Source of the DNA: a virus
Lineage: Duplodnaviria; Heunggongvirae; Uroviricota; Caudoviricetes
Direction: 5' to 3' (one strand)
DNA length: 20,229 bases
IMG/VR virus record: IMGVR_UViG_3300010201_000017
Under the pieces are notes generated by a model, which ran no database searches, was not told where the DNA came from, and saw nothing but the letters and a program-made list of their open reading frames with translations. The translations under genes and the position numbers were made by a program. The first letter of the stretch is position 1. Every line of letters starts with the position of its first letter. Shown here piece after piece: positions 859-10,665 of this stretch.

Positions 859-1626
859 TTGGCCTATTCACTTCCGATAGCGATTGGAGATCATCCGTTG
901 GACCGTAAACTCGTCATCTTCACAGGGGCCGGCATTTCCGCAGATTCTGGAATTGCGACTTTTCGCGATGCCGACGGTCTTTGGGAAAAGCACTCAATCG
1001 AGCGAGTTTGCAATTACCTGACCTGGAAGAGCCATCGAGAAGAAGTGCATCGGTTCTACAATGCCAGACGCATGCAGCTTGCAGAAGCGATGCCGAACGA
1101 CGCCCACCGCATGGTGGCGAGGCTTCAAGCACACTTTCCGAATACGTCGATCATCACCCAAAATATCGACAATCTTCATGAACGAGGTGGAGCCAGGGAC
1201 GTCCTGCATGTTCACGGCAACCTGACTGAAATGAAGTGCGAAGCATGTTCGCATGTCTGGGATATCGGGTACTCCGAGTGGGGCCTCGACGATCGTTGCC
1301 CAAACATTCGTGGCGGCGTGCAATGCGGCTGCAAGAAGGCGGTTAAGCCGAACGTCATCATGTTCCACGAAGCGGCCCCGAACTATTCGCCAATGTGGAA
1401 AACACTCTCAAGTCTGACCGACCGAGATTTTCTTCTGGTCATCGGTACCAGCGGGTCTGTGATCCGAATCGGCGAAATCGCTCTTCAGAGCCGAGCCACA
1501 ACGATCCTTTCCAATCTCGAGAGCGCTGACACGATCCGCGATGATCAGTTTGATTACGTCATCCACGGTCGGGCTGCGGAGACTGCAGAAAGGATTGAGC
1601 AGTTCTTTAGAAAATTCGCCTTTTGA
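859..1626 (+). CDS. cobB: Sir2-family NAD-dependent protein deacylase (CobB-like, class III)
   Basis: GAGISADSGIATFRD..GLW, FYNARR, TQNIDNLHERGG, HVHGNL, CxxC...C..CxC zinc site, KPNVIMFHE, IGTSG. The TTG start is uncertain. Confidence 0.9.
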   Translation: MAYSLPIAIGDHPLDRKLVIFTGAGISADSGIATFRDADGLWEKHSIERVCNYLTWKSHREEVHRFYNARRMQLAEAMPNDAHRMVARLQAHFPNTSIITQNIDNLHERGGARDVLHVHGNLTEMKCEACSHVWDIGYSEWGLDDRCPNIRGGVQCGCKKAVKPNVIMFHEAAPNYSPMWKTLSSLTDRDFLLVIGTSGSVIRIGEIALQSRATTILSNLESADTIRDDQFDYVIHGRAAETAERIEQFFRKFAF

Positions 1627-1776: not shown

Positions 1777-2334
1777 CTAGTTGACCACGAGACTTGAATT
1801 TTGTTTGGTCAAAAACGAGAAATCCACCATCTGTAAAGGCTTCTTCAATCTACATTCGAGTTCGAATTGCGCAAACGCCCCAACGCATTCAGCGATATGA
1901 TTTTGTCGACCAAATCCGTTTATTAATCTCCAGAAGGCGAGGTCATGAGCCCTTAGCCAAGCGAATTCCGATGATGCGACGACGCCGTAACTATTCTTCA
2001 TTCTCTGGATCATGCCTAAGGTTACGGTCGCCACATAAGCATGCTTAGAAGCCGCCTCATCCGCCATCGCTTCGGCTTCTGGAACCAACGCATCCATTCC
2101 AAGCATATGCTCGAGCTTTACACTTCGACGGCGACCGAGGATGACTGACGCCACCTGTGACAGCGCAAGTTTGCGCCAGAGTGGGAGCGCTTCGAAGCTC
2201 GTCCAGCTTCCCTCCAATTGATCCACCAGGCAGATTGGGGATCTCTGAGGAGACTCAAGATTCAACACGGGCTTCAAGGAAAGCCCCTTCAATCTTGCGA
2301 TCGAGGCAATTGCCGGCGGCAACGATACAATCAT
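1777..2334 (-). CDS. dotM: IcmP/DotM (TrbA)-like protein, C-terminal cytoplasmic domain only, 185 aa
   Basis: HAYVATVTLGMIQRMKNSYGVVASSEFAWLRAHDLAFWRLINGFGRQNHIAECVGAFAQFELE matches the DotM C-domain pattern HAY..TV.......R..GV..SSEF.WL...D...W..LN..GRQ....E..G.FAH...E. Start re-called to ATG 2334 (GAGGAG RBS just after the dotL stop). No transmembrane segment. Confidence 0.75.
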   Translation of the reverse strand: MIVSLPPAIASIARLKGLSLKPVLNLESPQRSPICLVDQLEGSWTSFEALPLWRKLALSQVASVILGRRRSVKLEHMLGMDALVPEAEAMADEAASKHAYVATVTLGMIQRMKNSYGVVASSEFAWLRAHDLAFWRLINGFGRQNHIAECVGAFAQFELECRLKKPLQMVDFSFLTKQNSSLVVN

Positions 2335-2350
2335 TAGTGCGATCTCCTCA

Positions 2351-4123
2351 TCAACACTCTGGAAACGTGAAAAGGTTCTTTGGCACTCGGAGAACCTGCT
2401 GCGCACTCATAATCTCATCGAGAATTGAAACGGCAATGGCAACAGCTTGGCGTTCTGGCTTCCTTTCCTCTTGTCGCCCCTCTGTCTCAACGGCCTGTTT
2501 TGCAGCGGACGACAGCCTCCGCCTCAGAGATCGCATGCGTTCTCGTTTGGCTTCAACGTCCATCCAGTTCTGAACGAAAGAGGACGTTTCATAGAATCGC
2601 GAAAGGACGATTCTATGCCTGTTGCCCTCAATTTGGATGAACGGAGCATATCCCCACTTGTTTCGACCACCGTGCACTACCAGCATTTGCCCAGGCTGTA
2701 GCATCTGAAGGCGTACTTCTAATATATCTGGTGGAATCGATCGCGCTTTATCGAGAGCCTGATCGTGAAGGCGGGACATTGCCTCAACATTGTAGCTCGA
2801 GTTCCACGGTTCGGCATAATGTAAATTGAAGTGATGAATTCCGACTTTTGCGCCGTGAATTTCCTTTTCGATTGCCCGGGTGTGCCGATCTTGCTCGGTA
2901 ATTATACGAATTAGGCTCCCCAGATTGGCGCCACCAGGATTTTCTGCCTTCAAGAAGATTTTTGTGTTCGTATTGGCCAAGATAGCGCTCGCCTCAGCCG
3001 AATTTTTCGAAAACATCGAGTCGACTTCTTGTGTAGCGAAAACAAGTCCGATTCCAAGCGACCGCGCTTGCGCAGCCATAAGCCCCATTCCATCCGACAT
3101 ATAATGACCGACCTCGTCCATGATAACGAGATATGGAGGCTCGACATGAGTAGCGCTTTTGCCAACAACGGCGTCCCATTCTCCTTCAACCGTTGATCGA
3201 AGAGCTTTACCCATCAGACTTTTTAGCAAGCTAACGAGCATACGACCGATCGAGCCGATCTCGCTGGATGACTTCTCAAGTGAAGGTAACAGAACGATCA
3301 GGATTCGCCGATTCTTGACGACATCAGCCAAGTCTACATCGGGTGTAAGACTGCCGAAGATATGATTATAATGGTCCGCAATCAGCCCAAACATCCTAGT
3401 GAACTGCATTGAGAGATAACCGTGCTGATCATTGGTGGTTGACGATTGGTTCGTCCTGCCACTGTCGAAACCAGGCAACGATAACAGATACCCGCGAAGT
3501 CCCGCCGTTATCCGCTCTGGCGCATTATACTCAATCGCTTGATCAAGAAGAGCGATTACTCCTTTTAAAGAACTCACCTCACGTAGTCTGTCGAACCCAA
3601 ACGGCATATTCATTTCATCTCGGCACCAGACCAACATAGGGATGATGGCTCCCATGAGTGCGATCGCGCGCCCCCTCCACATTGCATGGTCGCCTGATGA
3701 CGATTCCTCTACGAAGCTGGAAACAAATTGCAGAATCTCATCGCCTGCCATCGACGCAAGAGGATTGATGGTGTGAGAACGGAATGCATTCGTTGCTCCG
3801 CTCTGGCCCTGCATAAAATTCAGGACATAGATGTCATCTTCTCGTCCGAGAGACGTCGCAACAGCATGAAGCTTTGCGAACAGGGACATATCGCTCTTCC
3901 CGTCGATGATAGTCACACCGCTGCCCCACGCCATCGCATTAGCAGCCATCGAAATCAGAAGCTCCGATTTCCCTGAACCTGTCGATCCGGTCACGAAAGT
4001 ATGCGTCCGAACCTGATCGTCGGTTAGCCACATCTCGGTGTCATCAACACTATTCCCAAGATAGAGGAGCGACTTCTCGCTTTTCCCTAAGAACGGATCA
4101 GCGGCCCTACTGAAATCGACCAT
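2351..4123 (-). CDS. dotL: IcmO/DotL (TrbC)-like type IVB coupling ATPase, 590 aa, no N-terminal transmembrane region
   Basis: YLGN...EMWLTDDQVRTHTFVTGSTGSGKS (Walker A), GSGVTIIDGKSD, GREDDIYVLNFM, WRGRAIALM, DVVKNRRILIVLLPSLEKS, LVIMDEVGHY (Walker B), AQARSLG...VFATQE and ANTNTKIFLK are all DotL-family signatures. AGGAG RBS, and the ATG overlaps the upstream stop (TGATG). Confidence 0.88.
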   Translation of the reverse strand: MVDFSRAADPFLGKSEKSLLYLGNSVDDTEMWLTDDQVRTHTFVTGSTGSGKSELLISMAANAMAWGSGVTIIDGKSDMSLFAKLHAVATSLGREDDIYVLNFMQGQSGATNAFRSHTINPLASMAGDEILQFVSSFVEESSSGDHAMWRGRAIALMGAIIPMLVWCRDEMNMPFGFDRLREVSSLKGVIALLDQAIEYNAPERITAGLRGYLLSLPGFDSGRTNQSSTTNDQHGYLSMQFTRMFGLIADHYNHIFGSLTPDVDLADVVKNRRILIVLLPSLEKSSSEIGSIGRMLVSLLKSLMGKALRSTVEGEWDAVVGKSATHVEPPYLVIMDEVGHYMSDGMGLMAAQARSLGIGLVFATQEVDSMFSKNSAEASAILANTNTKIFLKAENPGGANLGSLIRIITEQDRHTRAIEKEIHGAKVGIHHFNLHYAEPWNSSYNVEAMSRLHDQALDKARSIPPDILEVRLQMLQPGQMLVVHGGRNKWGYAPFIQIEGNRHRIVLSRFYETSSFVQNWMDVEAKRERMRSLRRRLSSAAKQAVETEGRQEERKPERQAVAIAVSILDEIMSAQQVLRVPKNLFTFPEC

Positions 4124-4701
4124 CAACGGCTCCTAAAAGCAGACTTTGCTGCTACAATAATGTCCTCGATCGGCCATTTTGACATCCTCTCCTTGTCAAA
4201 CGCCAGAGGGATAACACGAAGACCAATCTCAGCATCGGCCCGGATTTCCGGATTCTCTTCGATAAGTGTTTGAACATCTTTGATGTCAGAAGAACCAAAG
4301 AGGTCGACAGCTATGTCTACCGCACCGAGAAAGACATCATTCATGAGATCCTTTGCTGCCGCCTCTATTTTTGCCTCCAAGTCCTTAGGGCTGAAATAGT
4401 AAGTTGCTCCACTAACCTCTACTACAGCCAGCAGTTCTGCCGACTCCGCCCCATCGCCATTTGGTTTCTCAGCGAGCATTTTCCGAATTCTATCTGGATA
4501 AGCTGCACAGTAAGCGAGAACGCGAACAGAATTTGACACCTCTTCCTGTGACATACTCGGTAACCAAGCAGCTTTCACAACGACTCCTGATAGTACGTCT
4601 CGTCGTTTTGCTGCGAGACATTCGATACACATTGGAATGTTGTTCGGCTGTGCTATTTTTGGAGCGTCCGCCTCAAATCCGCATTTACATCGATCAGGCA
4701 T
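4123..4701 (-). CDS. dotN: IcmJ/DotN-like protein, 192 aa
   Basis: N-terminal CKCGF...CIEC Cys cluster followed by AWLPSMSQEEVSNSVRVL resembles DotN C..CGF...C..C and IYLPE.TQ.ELN.L..VL. It is translationally coupled to dotL. Confidence 0.6.
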   Translation of the reverse strand: MPDRCKCGFEADAPKIAQPNNIPMCIECLAAKRRDVLSGVVVKAAWLPSMSQEEVSNSVRVLAYCAAYPDRIRKMLAEKPNGDGAESAELLAVVEVSGATYYFSPKDLEAKIEAAAKDLMNDVFLGAVDIAVDLFGSSDIKDVQTLIEENPEIRADAEIGLRVIPLAFDKERMSKWPIEDIIVAAKSAFRSR

Positions 4702-4934: not shown

Positions 4935-5099
4935 GCACGTGCCCGCGGTCCCTCGTGACCAAAGCAACGACGAACGGGCCTTTCCGAACCCGACGGGGTC
5001 CAAACCCGACGGATTACGCCGAAGGGCTTTTCTTCATTGCAGGACGCGCATCGCGGTTCACCCCCGAGACGTATCCCTGAAAAATTCGAGGAATTCGTC
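4935..5099 (+). ncRNA. speF / alpha-r45-like structured leader upstream of ornithine decarboxylase (divergent)
   Basis: GTGCCCG..GTCCCT...ACCAAAGCAAC..GAAC.GGGC, in which GCCCG 4941-4945 pairs with CGGGC 4975-4979. Then AAGGGCTTTTC and GAGACGTA (5066-5073). These resemble blocks I recall from the Rhizobiales speF motif, and the position directly 5' of an ODC gene fits. Confidence 0.55.
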
Positions 5100-6260
5100 A
5101 TGGACCGCATTTCCGAGTTCATCCGAGCCAATGACATCGACGGACCATGCCTCGTCATGGATCTTGATATTGTTCGCTCGAATTTTCTGGCGTTCAGGAA
5201 AGCGATGCCGAAGAGCCGCGTCTTCTATGCGGTGAAGGCCAATCCTGAAGAGGCGCTGCTCGCGCTACTGGCCGACCTCGGTTCCAATTTCGATTGTGCG
5301 TCGGTTGCCGAAATCGATGTCGCCCTTGCGGCCGGCGCGGCGCCCGACCGGATTTCATACGGCAACACGATCAAGAAGGAGCGGGACATCGGAAAGGCCT
5401 TTTCCCGTGGCGTGCGGTTGTTCGCAGTCGATTCCGTTCCGGAAGTTGAGAAGCTCGCTCGCGCGGCTCCAGGCTCTCAGGTGTTTTGCCGTATCCTTTG
5501 TGAGGGCCATGGAGCCGAATGGCCCCTGTCTAGGAAATTCGGTTGCGAACCAGAGATGGCCGTCGACGTCCTGCGCGCGGCCGCCAGGCTGGGCCTGGAG
5601 GCCTACGGCGTCTCCTTCCATGTCGGATCTCAGCAAACCAATGTGGACGCTTGGGACGACGCCCTTGCCTCGGTGGCAGGCGTTTTCAAGGCCTGCTCCC
5701 GGCACGGCATTGAGCTGTCCATGGTCAATCTGGGCGGCGGCTTTCCGACCGAGTACCTTCGTAAAATTCCCAGCGTCCAAAATTTTGGAACGGCGATCGA
5801 GAGGGCTTTGCGCCGACACTTCGGGAAGAAGCTTCCTGAAACCATTATCGAACCAGGTCGCGGCATGGTGGGGAATGCCGGCGTCATTAAAGCCGAAGTC
5901 GTCCTCGTTTCTCGGAAGAGCTCCAGCGACGATGTGCGTTGGGTCTATCTTGACATCGGCAAATTCGGAGGCCTCGCGGAAACCATCGACGAGTCCATCA
6001 GATATCGAATTCGCACGGCTAAGGATGGGAATTCCACTTCTCCGTGTATCGTTGCGGGTCCAACCTGCGATTCAATGGATGTCCTTTACGAAAAGTATCC
6101 GTACGATCTGCCCAACAACCTCGAGATCGGCGATGAAATCTATATCGAAGGAGCTGGAGCCTATACGACGACCTATTCCAGCGTCGCATTCAATGGATTC
6201 GCTCCATTGACTTCTTTAATATTGGAGGCTACTCCAGTCGAAGAGCGCATTGCAGCCTGA
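5100..6260 (+). CDS. speF: Ornithine (lysine/ornithine) decarboxylase, PLP fold-type III, 386 aa
   Basis: FYAVKANP (PLP lysine), FDCAS, YGNTIKK, KFGC, FHVGSQ, NLGGGF, EPGR, GPTCDS, GAYT. It closely resembles Rhizobiales ODC. Start re-called to ATG 5100 after GAGG. Confidence 0.93.
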   Translation: MDRISEFIRANDIDGPCLVMDLDIVRSNFLAFRKAMPKSRVFYAVKANPEEALLALLADLGSNFDCASVAEIDVALAAGAAPDRISYGNTIKKERDIGKAFSRGVRLFAVDSVPEVEKLARAAPGSQVFCRILCEGHGAEWPLSRKFGCEPEMAVDVLRAAARLGLEAYGVSFHVGSQQTNVDAWDDALASVAGVFKACSRHGIELSMVNLGGGFPTEYLRKIPSVQNFGTAIERALRRHFGKKLPETIIEPGRGMVGNAGVIKAEVVLVSRKSSSDDVRWVYLDIGKFGGLAETIDESIRYRIRTAKDGNSTSPCIVAGPTCDSMDVLYEKYPYDLPNNLEIGDEIYIEGAGAYTTTYSSVAFNGFAPLTSLILEATPVEERIAA

Positions 6261-7893: not shown

Positions 7894-9255
7894 TTACCGA
7901 TTAGATGCGAACCGAAGACTTGCGTCCTGTGATGGATCGTATCCTTTAACGCCCCACCGCCGATCGAGCGATATGGACCCAGCTCCAACGATGTCACCGG
8001 TCGCCTTGTCCTGCACTACCCAGACATTATTGTCCTGGCTAAACCGAATCTGTTCAGATTCCTTTTTGAACTCGATGATCTCGTTGAACCCTGGAGCTGT
8101 CGCTGGTCGGAAGCCGATGCGTGGACCAATCTTCTCATCGTCCAGATCAGGGACCTTGTGGGGTTTTGTATAATCCCGAAGCATCGCGGATGCAGTCTTA
8201 TCTCCACCTTTGCTCATTTCCTTTAGGATCGACTTAAAGCCATTCGAATTCGTTTCGAACGGCTTGAGCGTCACCGCGCCGAACATGAGATTGTTGCTCA
8301 GTGTTTTGAGACGCGCGAACTCTGGGATCGTTTGGGCGTGATACGTCACCCAATCTTCTGGAGCGACCCTCTGCACTCCACTCTCGACTGGAATGTAGTG
8401 CGCCTTCATGTTCCCGATCTCGTTGAGCGAGACCCTGAAATGTCGGCGATGCTCAATCTCCTCGTTTGAAAGGCCGAATTCTTCCGCGAGTTCATTGGCA
8501 AGCGACGCGATTTCCTTCATGCCCATCGACATGAATTTGGGACTGTTACGCAACCGATCCTCGACCGCGAGGATGTTCCACAGCGTCTTCGAAATGAAGT
8601 AGTCACCGCCGAATTCAGGAGACGACCATTCGTCAAGCTCGCGCCAAGTCGCAAGCATCGGCAGTATTTTCCGATTGTCTGAATGGCGGATCGTCATCAG
8701 AGCGGAAAACGTATCAGCCTTGTTCTCCGATCCACCCAGCAGACAATGGCCAAGCTCGTGCCAGAAGATCGATTTGTACAGATCCTCGCGACTCACTCCA
8801 GAAATATCCATCTCGCCATCTTCGTCGTGGAAGAATTCGCGGACACTTTGATTTGGACGCGGTCCTACAACAACGCAGATTGGTTTTGCTGATGAACCCA
8901 TCACACCAAATGTGACCGCCCCACGTTCATCAACTTCTTCGCGGAAGCCGTCAGCCTCACGAACAAGCGACTTGTCGATACGTTTCGCTTCTTTCTTGAA
9001 GTCCTTCTGAGACATGTCGAAGAATTCGATTCGGTCTTTAGAACCTGCGAATTCATTCTCCACCTGCTTCCGGACACCATCGAGTGCATTCCGATATGGC
9101 ACTTCACCAAGATCCGACGTATTGACCTTAATACGAGCGCCATTCAGAATCTTTGCGGCTCGCGCAGCGTAATTGGAGGCGGTGATTGGAGCCTCGATGA
9201 CAAAAGGCGTGTCGGCAAATTTCGTAATGACTTGCCAGTCAACCATGTCCATCAT
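7894..9255 (-). CDS. HExxH zincin-like protein, paralog A, 453 aa
   Basis: FWHELGHCLLGGSENKADTFSALM (HExxH plus E..AD.F). GGGAG RBS. Colinear full-length similarity to 9271-10665. No signal peptide or transmembrane segment. Confidence 0.8.
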   Translation of the reverse strand: MMDMVDWQVITKFADTPFVIEAPITASNYAARAAKILNGARIKVNTSDLGEVPYRNALDGVRKQVENEFAGSKDRIEFFDMSQKDFKKEAKRIDKSLVREADGFREEVDERGAVTFGVMGSSAKPICVVVGPRPNQSVREFFHDEDGEMDISGVSREDLYKSIFWHELGHCLLGGSENKADTFSALMTIRHSDNRKILPMLATWRELDEWSSPEFGGDYFISKTLWNILAVEDRLRNSPKFMSMGMKEIASLANELAEEFGLSNEEIEHRRHFRVSLNEIGNMKAHYIPVESGVQRVAPEDWVTYHAQTIPEFARLKTLSNNLMFGAVTLKPFETNSNGFKSILKEMSKGGDKTASAMLRDYTKPHKVPDLDDEKIGPRIGFRPATAPGFNEIIEFKKESEQIRFSQDNNVWVVQDKATGDIVGAGSISLDRRWGVKGYDPSQDASLRFASNR

Positions 9256-9270
9256 GACGCTACTCCCGCA

Positions 9271-10665
9271 CTATCTTCTCGGTGCCAACGCGGCGATCTC
9301 TGTGACCGTGGCGGGCTTGGAAGAGTTGGACTTAGTCTCGTTCGACGCTGACGCGCTTGGGAACTGCCACCGACTGTCGAATGACACCGAGCCGGTTTTC
9401 ACAAGATCGCCAGTCTGGGAGTTTCGTATCTCCCAAAGGTCGTTGTCGAAGCTAAACGAAATGCGCTCTCGCGCTGGATCGAACTTGATATCACCGACGC
9501 CAATTGGCTCGATCTGGCGCATGCCGACGCGCTCCGCGAGAGACGCGGAGGATGCCATCTGCGGATACTCTGTCCCTTGGTAGAATGCTTGATAGGCGAT
9601 CGCCGTCGGGTCGCCAGCCTTGGCCAGTCTAACGATCGCATCCGTGAACTTATCGATGTCCACCGACTCGTAGACAGGCAACGGCGCGCCCTGTTTCAGA
9701 TTCGCAACGACAGACAACAGGCGCTTGAACTCAGGAATCTCCCGCGCTCTGGCTTCGATCCACTGTTCGACGTTAACCGCTCGCAGACCGTCAGAGACCT
9801 GCACGTAATGCGCCCGCATACCGACGATTCCGTTCAAGGCCTGCCTGAACTGTCGGATGTGCGCCTTTTGGTCCTTTCCGGGGCTGTAATCAGTCACAAT
9901 CTCTGATGCCAGAGAGGCGACTTCCTTCAGGCTCATTTCCTTGAACTTGGTACTGTTGCGGAGCTTGTCCTCGATCTTTGTGAGGCTCCAAAGCATTGGA
10001 GAGACAACCCGGTCGTCCGCCTTCAACGGATTCGTCATCTCCTCGAATTCATTGAAGGCGGCGAGCAAAGGAATGACCTTGCTGTTTTTACCGCTTCTGA
10101 TTTCCATCAAAGCAGCAAAAATATCAGCTTTGTTGTCGGAGTTTCCGAGCAGGCAGTGGCCGAGTTCATGCCACATGGCGATGCGCTGCGTCGTCTCATC
10201 ATCGACGCCAGCGGCGTTGATCCCGATGCCAGACCCTCGAGCAAAGAAATCCTTTGCAGTCATCGAAGGCTGAGGGCCAACGACCACACATAGTGGCTGA
10301 CCAAACGTATCCTTCGTGTCGATGGAGTAGGGGCCTTCTATTTGTGCACGTTCAACCATCGCTGAAGCTGATTTGGCGAGGGTCATATCAATCCTGAGAG
10401 CCTCTTTCACAGGCTGCTTCTCGGACATGTCGAAGAATTCAACACGCTTTTCATTATTGAGAAACGTCGATTGGACTGCCTTCCGAACAGCATTCAGCGC
10501 CTTGCGATAAGGGACGTTTCCAATATCGTCGGTATTGATCTTCAGACGATTTCCAGCGAGCATTGCGCTCGCTCGCGCGAGGTATTCAGCGGCTGACGCA
10601 GACGACTCCACGACGAAGGAAACATCCGTAAAATCGTGAATAGTTTTCAGGTCTGCGCCATCCAT
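9271..10665 (-). CDS. HExxH zincin-like protein, paralog B, 464 aa
   Basis: MWHELGHCLLGNSDNKADIFAALM. Shares N-terminal (VPYR.AL..VRK.V), central (EFFDMS, P.CVVVGP.P, ED.LRNS.KF, IPEF.RL) and C-terminal (I.FS.DN..W....TGD.V..GS.S.D.RW) blocks with paralog A. Confidence 0.8.
   Translation of the reverse strand: MDGADLKTIHDFTDVSFVVESSASAAEYLARASAMLAGNRLKINTDDIGNVPYRKALNAVRKAVQSTFLNNEKRVEFFDMSEKQPVKEALRIDMTLAKSASAMVERAQIEGPYSIDTKDTFGQPLCVVVGPQPSMTAKDFFARGSGIGINAAGVDDETTQRIAMWHELGHCLLGNSDNKADIFAALMEIRSGKNSKVIPLLAAFNEFEEMTNPLKADDRVVSPMLWSLTKIEDKLRNSTKFKEMSLKEVASLASEIVTDYSPGKDQKAHIRQFRQALNGIVGMRAHYVQVSDGLRAVNVEQWIEARAREIPEFKRLLSVVANLKQGAPLPVYESVDIDKFTDAIVRLAKAGDPTAIAYQAFYQGTEYPQMASSASLAERVGMRQIEPIGVGDIKFDPARERISFSFDNDLWEIRNSQTGDLVKTGSVSFDSRWQFPSASASNETKSNSSKPATVTEIAALAPRR

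What the first reader, a model, noticed from the sequence alone, without database searches (positions are those of the whole stretch)
1777..4123. DotL and DotM have both cleanly lost their membrane anchors while the ATPase motifs stay intact
Seen: DotL starts only about 20 aa before the YLGN/Walker A region, with an AGGAG RBS and an ATG overlapping the dotN stop, so this is a designed start and not a break. The DotM-like protein is only the 185-aa C-domain with its own GAGGAG RBS. Neither has a transmembrane segment. Walker A (GSTGSGKS) and Walker B (VIMDE) are intact, and DotL keeps a shortened C-terminal tail. Established: canonical DotL and DotM are inner-membrane proteins anchored by N-terminal helices. 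Inference: this is a soluble complex that could dock onto, hetero-oligomerise with, or dominantly inhibit a membrane-bound coupling protein (adaptor or fertility-inhibition-like role).
Basis: partly seen in the sequence, partly recalled or inferred. Interest (0 to 1): 0.7.

Follow-up and report, generated by a model that had tools for sequence, protein, structure and literature searches.

The report
Anchor-less DotN-DotL-DotM coupling complex paralogue
This three-gene operon encodes intact but membrane-anchor-free copies of the three core proteins that normally feed cargo into a Legionella-type (type IVB) secretion machine; it belongs to an old, conserved and apparently undescribed family found on giant plasmid-like replicons of soil and water bacteria.

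Summary
On the minus strand lie dotN-like (4701-4123), dotL-like (4123-2351) and a DotM cytoplasmic-domain-only gene (2334-1777). Start and stop overlap as described, both ribosome-binding sites are present, and Walker A/B are intact. None of the three proteins has a hydrophobic helix.

It is not a singleton truncation. At least 36 protein clusters from other assemblies have Walker A at residue 39-55 and no anchor, against about 135-145 plus helices in canonical DotL. They form one clade that is sister to the canonical DotL of Rhizobiales/Rhodobacterales megaplasmids. DotN-like and DotM_C-only partners travel with them: they are adjacent in Rhizobium leguminosarum pRlX5 and lie on the same contigs in six other lineages. 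Predicted folds match Legionella DotN (Z 11) and the DotM cytoplasmic domain (Z 16).

The two complete replicons with an anchor-less copy that I could inspect also carry a canonical DotL, DotM, DotH and DotI.

Best reading: a duplicated, cytosolic DotLMN ATPase module that assists or modulates a type IVB machine. Function is inferred, not shown. A secretion-independent role is not excluded, and the window's own replicon could not be searched.

I rate it a new variant of a known kind. The scan had noted this same stretch before (e1-5435319, follow-up withheld); no look-alike was recorded on other DNA.

The parts
4123..4701 (-). dotN-like gene (192 aa), first gene of the operon. It has an N-terminal Cys motif (C5, C7, C25, C28).
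   Evidence: ORF and AGGA ribosome-binding site. There is no Pfam or NCBIfam hit. AlphaFold model pLDDT 76, pTM 0.71. The top PDB matches are all Legionella DotN: Foldseek prob 0.97-1.0; VIA Z 11.1/11.0/10.6, 135-143 residues aligned, next unrelated Z 3.6. Homologues P0127-P0130.
4618..4689 (-). Cys-x-Cys ... Cys-x-x-Cys motif of the DotN-like protein (candidate zinc site).
   Evidence: Read from the translation. The motif is shared with P0127, P0130, R. leguminosarum P0121 and the Bosea homologue. Zinc binding is inferred, not tested.
2351..4123 (-). Anchor-less dotL/icmO-like coupling ATPase gene (590 aa).
   Evidence: Pfam TraG-D_C, TrwB_AAD_bind and T4SS-DNA_transf. NCBIfam TrbC 264.9 bits over model positions 118-496. 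Legionella DotL 104-498, E 8e-83. No TM segment. Member of the anchor-less clade.
4130..4134 (-). AGGAG ribosome-binding site of dotL-like, 6 nt before the ATG at 4123, which overlaps the dotN-like TGA by one base.
   Evidence: Sequence read.
3965..3988 (-). Walker A, GSTGSGKS (residues 46-53).
   Evidence: Sequence read. G46, T48, G49, S50, G51 and K52 are invariant in 24 anchor-less homologues.
3113..3127 (-). Walker B, VIMDE (residues 333-337).
   Evidence: Sequence read. D336 and E337 are invariant in the clade.
2351..2590 (-). Short C-terminal tail of the DotL-like protein (about residues 512-590).
   Evidence: Position after the last core block shared with canonical DotL. The tail is conserved in P0002/P0003 (97-98% query coverage at 63-66% identity). 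Its role in binding DotM and DotN is inferred from PMC7280309.
1777..2334 (-). DotM cytoplasmic-domain-only gene (185 aa).
   Evidence: Pfam DotM_C 68.5 bits. Legionella DotM 273-346, E about 1e-11. AlphaFold model pTM 0.75. VIA Z 15.0-16.3 to the DotM 153-380 crystal structures, model 10-185 on DotM 164-367, next Z 3.3. No TM segment.
2344..2349 (-). GAGGAG ribosome-binding site of the DotM_C-only gene, 9 nt before the ATG at 2334.
   Evidence: Sequence read.

Best explanation
The operon encodes a cytosolic paralogue of the core of the type IVB secretion coupling complex.

Shown:
- The three genes are intact homologues of DotN, DotL and the cytoplasmic domain of DotM.
- Both normally membrane-anchored partners lack their anchors.
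- The anchor-less DotL proteins form one old, diversified clade. It arose by duplication of the canonical DotL of Rhizobiales/Rhodobacterales-type megaplasmids, and it keeps every ATPase motif.
- DotN-like and DotM_C-only genes travel with it.

Inferred:
- The three proteins assemble through the same cytoplasmic interfaces as in Legionella: the DotL tail in the DotM groove and on DotN.
- The result is a soluble, ATP-hydrolysing DotLMN complex.
- It most likely works with the replicon family's type IVB machine as a second, membrane-free recruitment or hand-off module for a subset of cargo, or as a modulator of the anchored coupling complex. It is unlikely to be a channel-forming coupling protein itself.
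For: - Gene anatomy, translational coupling, ribosome-binding sites and intact Walker A/B.
- No hydrophobic helices, with canonical homologues as positive controls.
- 36 anchor-less clusters with Walker A at residue 39-55 (P0105 excluded as a truncated member of a canonical group).
- One clade in two trees: SH-aLRT 99; UFBoot/SH-aLRT 96/92 including one anchored basal paralogue. It is sister to canonical megaplasmid DotL, with a joint node of 100/99.
- Same gene order (Zn-Cys protein, anchor-less DotL, DotM_C-only, with overlapping stop/start) in R. leguminosarum pRlX5. A DotN-like gene plus anchor-less DotL in Bosea pBSY19_1.
- Fold matches to DotN (Z 11) and to DotM 153-380 (Z 16).
- The DotM GRQ motif, which contains a DotL-contact residue mutated in PMC7280309, is kept as G142-R143-Q144.
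- pRlX5 and pBSY19_1 also carry canonical DotL (946- and 942-aa frames), full-length DotM, DotH/IcmK and DotI/IcmL.
- The window's replicon is kin to the Bosea megaplasmids. Its 453-aa zincin-like protein has PLSDB homologues only there.
Against: - No experiment and no complex prediction was possible, so assembly is an inference.
- The window's own replicon could not be searched for a canonical type IVB machine.
- Among the 120 best DotL hits, none besides the anchor-less one sits on the 0.82-Mb relative's contigs. That lineage may lack a canonical DotL on the same replicon.
- The Arg pair that binds Glu-rich export signals in Legionella DotM (R314/R315, PMC5802825) is Leu-Ala here. Cargo recognition, if any, differs.
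- The tail lacks the length needed for an IcmSW-binding part, and no dotY, dotZ or icmSW genes lie nearby.
- Engineered anchor-less coupling proteins (TrwB deltaN70, PcfC deltaN103, MobB deltaTMD) do not support transfer (PMC7431656).
- No sigma-70-like promoter was found upstream.
Confidence: 0.5

Rival explanations
1. Exapted, secretion-independent machine. The soluble DotLMN complex has left type IV secretion and uses the FtsK/HerA-type hexameric motor for a cytoplasmic job on the giant replicon, such as DNA or protein handling, maintenance, or defence.
For: - It is a stand-alone three-gene operon between unrelated genes, with no other T4BSS gene in 20 kb.
- No canonical DotL is seen on the 0.82-Mb relative's contigs among the top hits.
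- The Glu-rich-signal Arg pair of DotM is lost.
- There is precedent for coupling-protein-like ATPases in defence: the PADLOC mad8 model of the MADS system matches at E 2.5e-29, and MAD7-MAD8 is an ATPase-nuclease module (PMC13662399).
- The pRlX5 copy lies next to an AbiEii toxin gene.
Against: - The mad8 match is generic. Canonical DotL scores higher (130-139 bits) than the anchor-less forms (99-111 bits).
- No other mad or defence model hits the neighbours.
- Retention of both DotM and DotN partners, which are known only as secretion coupling subunits, argues for a secretion-linked role.
- Both inspectable replicons with the paralogue have a complete-looking T4BSS.
Confidence: 0.25
2. Negative regulator. 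The anchor-less proteins titrate substrates or poison the hexamer of the anchored DotL/DotM (dominant-negative or fertility-inhibition-like), limiting costly secretion or the transfer of rival elements.
For: - It coexists with canonical DotL/DotM on pRlX5 and pBSY19_1.
- Chimeric or altered coupling proteins can be negatively dominant (PMC7431656).
- The operon is absent from the related pANAM02, as expected for an accessory modulator.
Against: - Walker A, Walker B and many core residues are invariant over identities down to about 34%, which a passive decoy would not need.
- Three subunits are co-conserved.
- No fertility-inhibition family matched.
Confidence: 0.15
3. Decaying remnant. The genes are truncated leftovers of a lost T4BSS, with no function.
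For: There are no T4BSS neighbours in the window. G+C (49-52%) is lower than in the flanks (53-58%).
Against: - The frames are clean, with coupled starts and ribosome-binding sites, and there are no remnants of the anchor-coding parts.
- At least 36 independent clusters share the same architecture and form one clade.
- Catalytic motifs are invariant.
- Partners are co-conserved.
Confidence: 0.03

Closest known systems
Legionella pneumophila type IV coupling complex core DotL(IcmO)-DotM(IcmP)-DotN(IcmJ) (PDB 6SZ9, 5X1H, 5X42, 6EXA-E; PMC7280309, PMC5802825)
   Same: All three proteins are homologues. DotL core E 8e-83. DotM cytoplasmic domain Z 15-16. DotN Z about 11. Walker A/B are present, the genes are adjacent, and the DotM GRQ contact motif is kept.
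   Different: - DotL lacks the first ~90-100 residues with the anchor. DotM lacks residues ~1-150, including its three helices.
- The tail is about 80 aa instead of 212, so there is no room for the IcmSW-binding part.
- No dotY, dotZ or icmS/W genes lie nearby.
- DotM R314/R315 is Leu-Ala.
- The proteins fall in a separate paralogous clade.
Canonical DotL/DotM of Rhizobiales/Rhodobacterales megaplasmids (R. leguminosarum pRlX5, Bosea pBSY19_1 and pANAM02, Sulfitobacter, Roseivivax)
   Same: Sister clade in the tree (100/99 joint support), with 43-45% identity over the core. The same kind of giant replicon.
   Different: Those proteins are 850-950 aa with N-terminal helices and long tails, and they sit in replicons with the channel genes. 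The window's protein belongs to the duplicated anchor-less lineage.
Naturally TMD-less coupling proteins, e.g. TraJ (Orf10) of pIP501 with its membrane partner TraI (review PMC7434980)
   Same: A natural coupling-type ATPase without a transmembrane domain.
   Different: Those are Gram-positive VirD4-type conjugation proteins that are brought to the membrane by a small membrane protein. Here no membrane protein is in the operon, and the usual membrane partner (DotM) has lost its anchor too.
Engineered soluble coupling proteins (TrwB deltaN70, PcfC deltaN103, MobB deltaTMD; PMC7431656)
   Same: The same architecture: nucleotide-binding plus all-alpha domain without the anchor.
   Different: Those are laboratory truncations that no longer support transfer. 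This is a naturally selected, diversified family with its own partners.
MAD8 of the MADS anti-phage system (PADLOC PDLC04140; PMC13662399)
   Same: A coupling-protein-like ATPase domain used outside secretion. E 2.5e-29.
   Different: The similarity is generic to DotL-type ATPases. No MAD7 nuclease or other mad genes are present.

Membership tests
DotL/IcmO (type IVB coupling ATPase; IncI TrbC) | VirD4/FtsK-type nucleotide-binding domain with Walker A and B | tested here: met
   GSTGSGKS and VIMDE are present and invariant in the clade. Pfam TraG-D_C, TrwB_AAD_bind and T4SS-DNA_transf score above their cut-offs.
DotL/IcmO (type IVB coupling ATPase; IncI TrbC) | Continuous homology to the DotL core, including the all-alpha domain | tested here: met
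   Residues 18-396 align to Legionella DotL 104-498, E 7.6e-83.
DotL/IcmO (type IVB coupling ATPase; IncI TrbC) | N-terminal transmembrane anchor | tested here: not met
   There is no hydrophobic segment (maximum 1.52, below 1.6). An in-frame stop lies 3 codons above the start.
DotL/IcmO (type IVB coupling ATPase; IncI TrbC) | Curated full-length model score (NCBIfam TrbC NF041447, cut-off 800) | tested here: not met
   264.9 bits, over model positions 118-496 only.
DotL/IcmO (type IVB coupling ATPase; IncI TrbC) | C-terminal tail that binds DotM, DotN and IcmSW | tested here: inconclusive
   A tail of about 80 aa is present and conserved in close relatives. No complex prediction was possible, and the tail is too short for the IcmSW part of the Legionella tail.
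DotM/IcmP | DotM_C cytoplasmic domain | tested here: met
   Pfam PF23127 68.5 bits against a cut-off of 27. VIA Z 15.0-16.3, 152-170 residues aligned, rmsd 3.3-7.6.
DotM/IcmP | Three N-terminal transmembrane helices (Legionella residues 19-115) | tested here: not met
   The protein is 185 aa with no hydrophobic segment, and the frame cannot extend upstream.
DotM/IcmP | NCBIfam DotM_IcmP_IVB equivalog score (cut-off 230) | tested here: not met
   58.7 bits, over model positions 257-334.
DotM/IcmP | Conserved Arg314 of the Glu-rich signal-binding patch | tested here: not met
   In the alignment, R314/R315 correspond to L132/A133. The Arg is kept in the R. leguminosarum subfamily.
DotN/IcmJ | DotN fold | tested here: met
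   VIA Z 11.1 (rmsd 3.1, 135 aligned), 11.0 and 10.6 to 5X1H, 5X42 and 6SZ9_C. The next hit is Z 3.6. Foldseek ranks 1-8 are all DotN.
DotN/IcmJ | Zinc-binding cysteine cluster | not testable with these tools
   C5, C7, C25 and C28 are present and shared with homologues. Metal binding was not tested.
TMD-less coupling proteins with membrane adaptor (TraJ/TraI of pIP501 type) | A small membrane protein encoded beside the ATPase that recruits it | tested here: not met
   The operon has three genes, none with a hydrophobic helix. The flanking genes are divergent or convergent and soluble.
MADS defence system (MAD7-MAD8 module) | Presence of the other mad genes, and a specific mad8 match | tested here: not met
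   Only the mad8 model hits, and canonical DotL scores higher on it.

The most novel reading that the evidence does not exclude
The anchor-less DotL-DotM-DotN complex is a free-standing cytoplasmic motor that no longer needs a secretion channel. This would be a first example of a whole type IV coupling complex (ATPase plus both adaptor subunits) exapted for an intracellular task on giant replicons. Candidate tasks are selecting, unfolding or moving proteins or DNA for element maintenance, inter-element conflict or defence.
Probability: 0.25. Interest if true: 0.75.

Novelty: new variant of a known kind. Interest (0 to 1): 0.58.

Why it matters
Coupling proteins are regarded as inner-membrane gatekeepers. 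In the Legionella model the anchors of DotL and DotM together are proposed to form the inner-membrane channel.

Here a naturally selected family has shed both anchors while keeping the ATPase and both adaptor subunits. That suggests the cytoplasmic part of the coupling complex has a function separable from the channel.

It also offers a naturally soluble DotLMN complex for biochemistry and structure work, which has been difficult with the membrane forms. And it points to unexplored biology of the megabase-sized, T4BSS-bearing accessory replicons of Rhizobiales-type bacteria, some of which carry two or three DotL paralogues.

Tried and rejected
Gene neighbourhoods of most database homologues could therefore not be read; I used contig-length fingerprints instead.
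- **Scan of metagenome contigs** with a clade-enriched Walker-A/DGK pattern: likewise.
- **Viral contigs** gave nothing relevant.
- **Sample of 401 alphaproteobacterial species genomes**: 29 had canonical DotL, mostly Micavibrio-like, and none had a clear anchor-less form. The sample includes the unpublished genome G044, on which no claim rests. 'Order of G148' held only 3 genomes.
- **PLSDB tblastn** with P0001, P0009, P0080 and the DotN-like and DotM-like proteins: only pRlX5 and pBSY19_1 were found as carriers.
- **Defence reading via mad8**: rejected as generic.
- **Split gene with the anchor in a separate ORF**: rejected. There is no membrane ORF in or beside the operon.
- **Mis-called start**: rejected because of the in-frame stop.
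- **Shared C-terminal address tag** among window proteins: none was seen.
- **Promoter scan**: no sigma-70-like site.
- **P0105**, which first looked 'short', is a truncated member of a canonical group.
Full report
**1. Observation**

The minus strand of 1777-4701 carries three tightly packed genes.

- **Gene 1** (4701-4123, 192 aa) starts with a Cys-x-Cys...Cys-x-x-Cys motif.
- **Gene 2** (4123-2351, 590 aa) starts at an ATG that shares one base with the TGA of gene 1. AGGAG lies 6 nt upstream. An in-frame stop sits three codons above the neighbouring TTG, so the protein cannot be longer at its N-terminus.
- **Gene 3** (2334-1777, 185 aa) has GAGGAG 9 nt upstream. It starts 17 nt after the stop of gene 2.

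Walker A (GSTGSGKS, residues 46-53) and Walker B (VIMDE, 333-337) are intact.

A 19-residue Kyte-Doolittle scan gives maxima of 1.26, 1.52 and 1.26 for the three proteins, below the 1.6 threshold. With the same settings, 24 of 26 canonical homologues show one or more helices between residues 13 and 79.

**2. Identity of the three proteins**

*Gene 2.* It matches the coupling-protein Pfam families and the IncI TrbC model over positions 118-496 of 685. It matches Legionella DotL residues 104-498 at E 7.6e-83. This is the DotL core without the first ~90-100 residues.

*Gene 3.* It passes the Pfam DotM_C threshold (68.5 bits). An AlphaFold model (pTM 0.75) superposes on the crystallised DotM cytoplasmic domain (residues 153-380). 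Z is 15.0-16.3 over 152-170 residues, and the next unrelated hit is Z 3.3. It is the whole cytoplasmic domain and nothing else. Legionella DotM has three helices at residues 19-115 (PMC5802825).

*Gene 1.* It has no family hit. Its model (pLDDT 76) finds Legionella DotN as Foldseek ranks 1-8 out of 350,542 chains. VIA gives Z 11.1, 11.0 and 10.6, and the next hit is Z 3.6.

**3. Not a singleton**

The protein search returned 1760 relatives. The best-matching 30-odd are 586-661 aa and cover 82-98% of the query. Canonical IcmO/DotL proteins are 750-950 aa and cover about 65%.

In the anchor-less set Walker A sits at residue 39-55; in canonical proteins it sits at about 109-145.

- A quick tree puts all 37 anchor-less rows (36 clusters plus the pRlX5 copy) in one clade (SH-aLRT 99).
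- A careful tree puts 26 anchor-less rows, plus one anchored basal paralogue from Bosea, in one clade (UFBoot/SH-aLRT 96/92).
- That clade is sister to the canonical DotL of R. leguminosarum pRlX5, Bosea, Sulfitobacter and relatives, with a joint node of 100/99.
- The label 'anchor-less' needs only one change on that tree.

Walker A, Walker B and some 60 other positions are invariant across members that are only 34-66% identical.

Named carriers are Agrobacterium rubi, Rhizobium sp. MHM7A, R. leguminosarum, Bosea sp. RAC05 and a compost metagenome. The family is rare: no clear member was found in 401 sampled alphaproteobacterial species genomes.

**4. The partners travel with it**

*R. leguminosarum pRlX5 (1.32 Mb).* The order is the same: a Zn-Cys protein with the shared '...P.(L/M)SQ...SN.VRVLA' block, then an anchor-less DotL of 550 aa, then a 184-aa DotM_C-only protein whose start overlaps the DotL stop. 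This copy lies in the deepest branch of the clade, so the arrangement is ancestral.

*Bosea pBSY19_1.* A DotN-like gene (E 7e-10 to the window's) directly precedes an anchor-less DotL of 529 aa.

| Contig length (bp) | DotL-like | DotN-like | DotM_C-only |
|---|---|---|---|
| 823,350 | P0132 | P0128 | P0150 |
| 820,224 | P0002 | P0143 | not seen |
| 54,472 (set of 8 contigs) | P0004 | P0129 | not seen |
| 20,372 | P0005 | P0130 | not seen |
| 4,203 | P0003 | not seen | P0124 |
| 3,426 | P0131 | not seen | P0125 |

A profile search also found 172-187-aa DotM_C-only proteins in further samples.

**5. Genomic setting**

The window has no other type IVB gene, and no whole genome is held for it. 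Earlier notes of this scan describe the replicon as an unusual ~0.8-Mb element with translation-related extras. The 820/823-kb contigs of the closest relatives fit that description.

The window's 453-aa zincin-like protein has PLSDB homologues only on the two ~0.7-Mb Bosea megaplasmids, which links the window to that replicon family.

- Those megaplasmids and pRlX5 all carry DotH/IcmK and DotI/IcmL, canonical DotL and full-length DotM.
- Their T4BSS genes are scattered. In pRlX5, DotH/I are at 35 kb, DotL at 280 kb and DotM at 877 kb.
- The two complete replicons with an anchor-less copy thus also have the anchored complex and a channel.
- pANAM02 has the machine but no anchor-less copy, so the module is accessory.

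**6. How it most likely works**

In the Legionella complex every DotL-DotM-DotN contact is cytoplasmic. The DotL tail (from residue 572) runs through a groove of DotM and then binds DotN, and DotM also touches DotN (PMC7280309). Nothing in that architecture needs the anchors, so a soluble DotLMN unit is feasible.

- The DotM 'GRQ' stretch holds Q326 (mutated with T327 in the M4 interface mutant). It is kept as G142-R143-Q144, and G142/R143 are invariant in the family.
- The Arg pair R314/R315 that binds Glu-rich export signals (PMC5802825) is Leu-Ala here, although the Arg is kept in the pRlX5 subfamily.
- The tail is only about 80 aa, too short to carry an IcmSW-binding part as well.

I therefore read the module as a duplicated, ATP-driven, membrane-free coupling unit. 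It would recruit or process some cargo and hand it to the anchored machine, or modulate that machine. Assembly, cargo and docking are all inferred.

**7. Rivals**

- **Secretion-independent exaptation** stays open at roughly one in four. The operon stands alone. No canonical DotL appears on the 0.82-Mb relatives' contigs among the 120 best hits. Coupling-type ATPases do occur in defence (MAD8). However, the mad8 match is generic, because canonical DotL scores higher.
- **A pure inhibitor** is less likely because the catalytic motifs are invariant.
- **Decay** is nearly excluded.

**8. Comparison with what is known**

Natural TMD-less coupling proteins are a recognised subfamily (TraJ of pIP501, recruited by the membrane protein TraI; PMC7434980). 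Engineered anchor-less versions are inactive in transfer (PMC7431656).

I found no paper describing anchor-less DotL together with anchor-less DotM and DotN. Databases label members only as generic 'DNA-binding domain-containing', 'HerA-like', 'DUF87' or 'DotM-related' proteins.

Measured against the family definitions, the proteins meet the domain and fold criteria of DotL, DotM and DotN. They fail the anchor criterion and the curated full-length model scores. The best description is a new architectural variant of a known complex.

**9. Limits**

- Hydrophobicity was scored with a simple scale, not a dedicated predictor.
- Neighbourhoods of most clade members are known only through contig fingerprints.
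- The trees used LG+G4 without the mixture model, and three long branches (pRlX5, Bosea1, Bosea2) sit near the base.
- The window's replicon could not be searched.
- No multimer prediction was available.

Noticed in passing
L208:4599-8142 (Bosea sp. RAC05 pBSY19_1, record 697598-701141, minus strand): This is a third DotL paralogue: 499 aa, WITH N-terminal hydrophobic helices but no Walker A consensus. It is followed by a short (285 aa) anchored DotM_C protein. In the tree it sits at the base of the anchor-less clade. It may be an intermediate or a degenerate, ATPase-dead coupling pair.
   Followed up: partly
P0136-P0141 (DotM_C-only proteins of the R. leguminosarum subfamily), alignment A4: All of them end in ...LGL(V/I/A)-COOH or ...IGL(A)-COOH. 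This recalls the D-L-G-L C-terminal 'address tags' that earlier notes of this scan reported on T4BSS-bearing Pseudomonas megaplasmids. The window's own DotM_C protein ends differently (SSLVVN).
   Followed up: no
window 7894-10665 (minus strand): The tandem ~460-aa zincin-like paralogues have homologues in PLSDB only on the two ~0.7-Mb Bosea megaplasmids (30% identity, 92-95% coverage). That ties the window's replicon to this megaplasmid family.
   Followed up: partly
window 11054, 15107, 15123, 19388, 19477: The 8-mer AAGGATTC occurs 5 times against 0.96 expected (0 of 100 shuffles reach 5). None lies in the 335-nt region upstream of the dotN-like gene.
   Followed up: partly
window 859-1626 (+) and 5037-6260 (+): The operon is flanked by a CobB/Sir2-type deacylase gene (NCBIfam 189.6 bits, below the cut-off of 243) and a PLP-dependent ornithine/DAP-decarboxylase-like gene. 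Both look like extra, element-borne metabolic copies. Neither neighbour is conserved beside the pRlX5 or Bosea copies.
   Followed up: partly
L045:12910-15836 (R. leguminosarum pRlX5): The pRlX5 copy of the operon lies next to an AbiEii nucleotidyltransferase toxin gene and an HTH protein with a weak RNA-ligase match, so the neighbourhood looks defence- or toxin-antitoxin-like.
   Followed up: no
W01 (pRlX5): 35 kb, 280 kb, 877 kb, 1262 kb: The canonical type IVB genes of this 1.32-Mb plasmid are widely scattered: DotH/DotI at 35 kb, DotL at 280 kb, DotM at 877 kb and a second DotI-like gene at 1262 kb. MOB-suite types the plasmid as non-mobilizable.
   Followed up: partly
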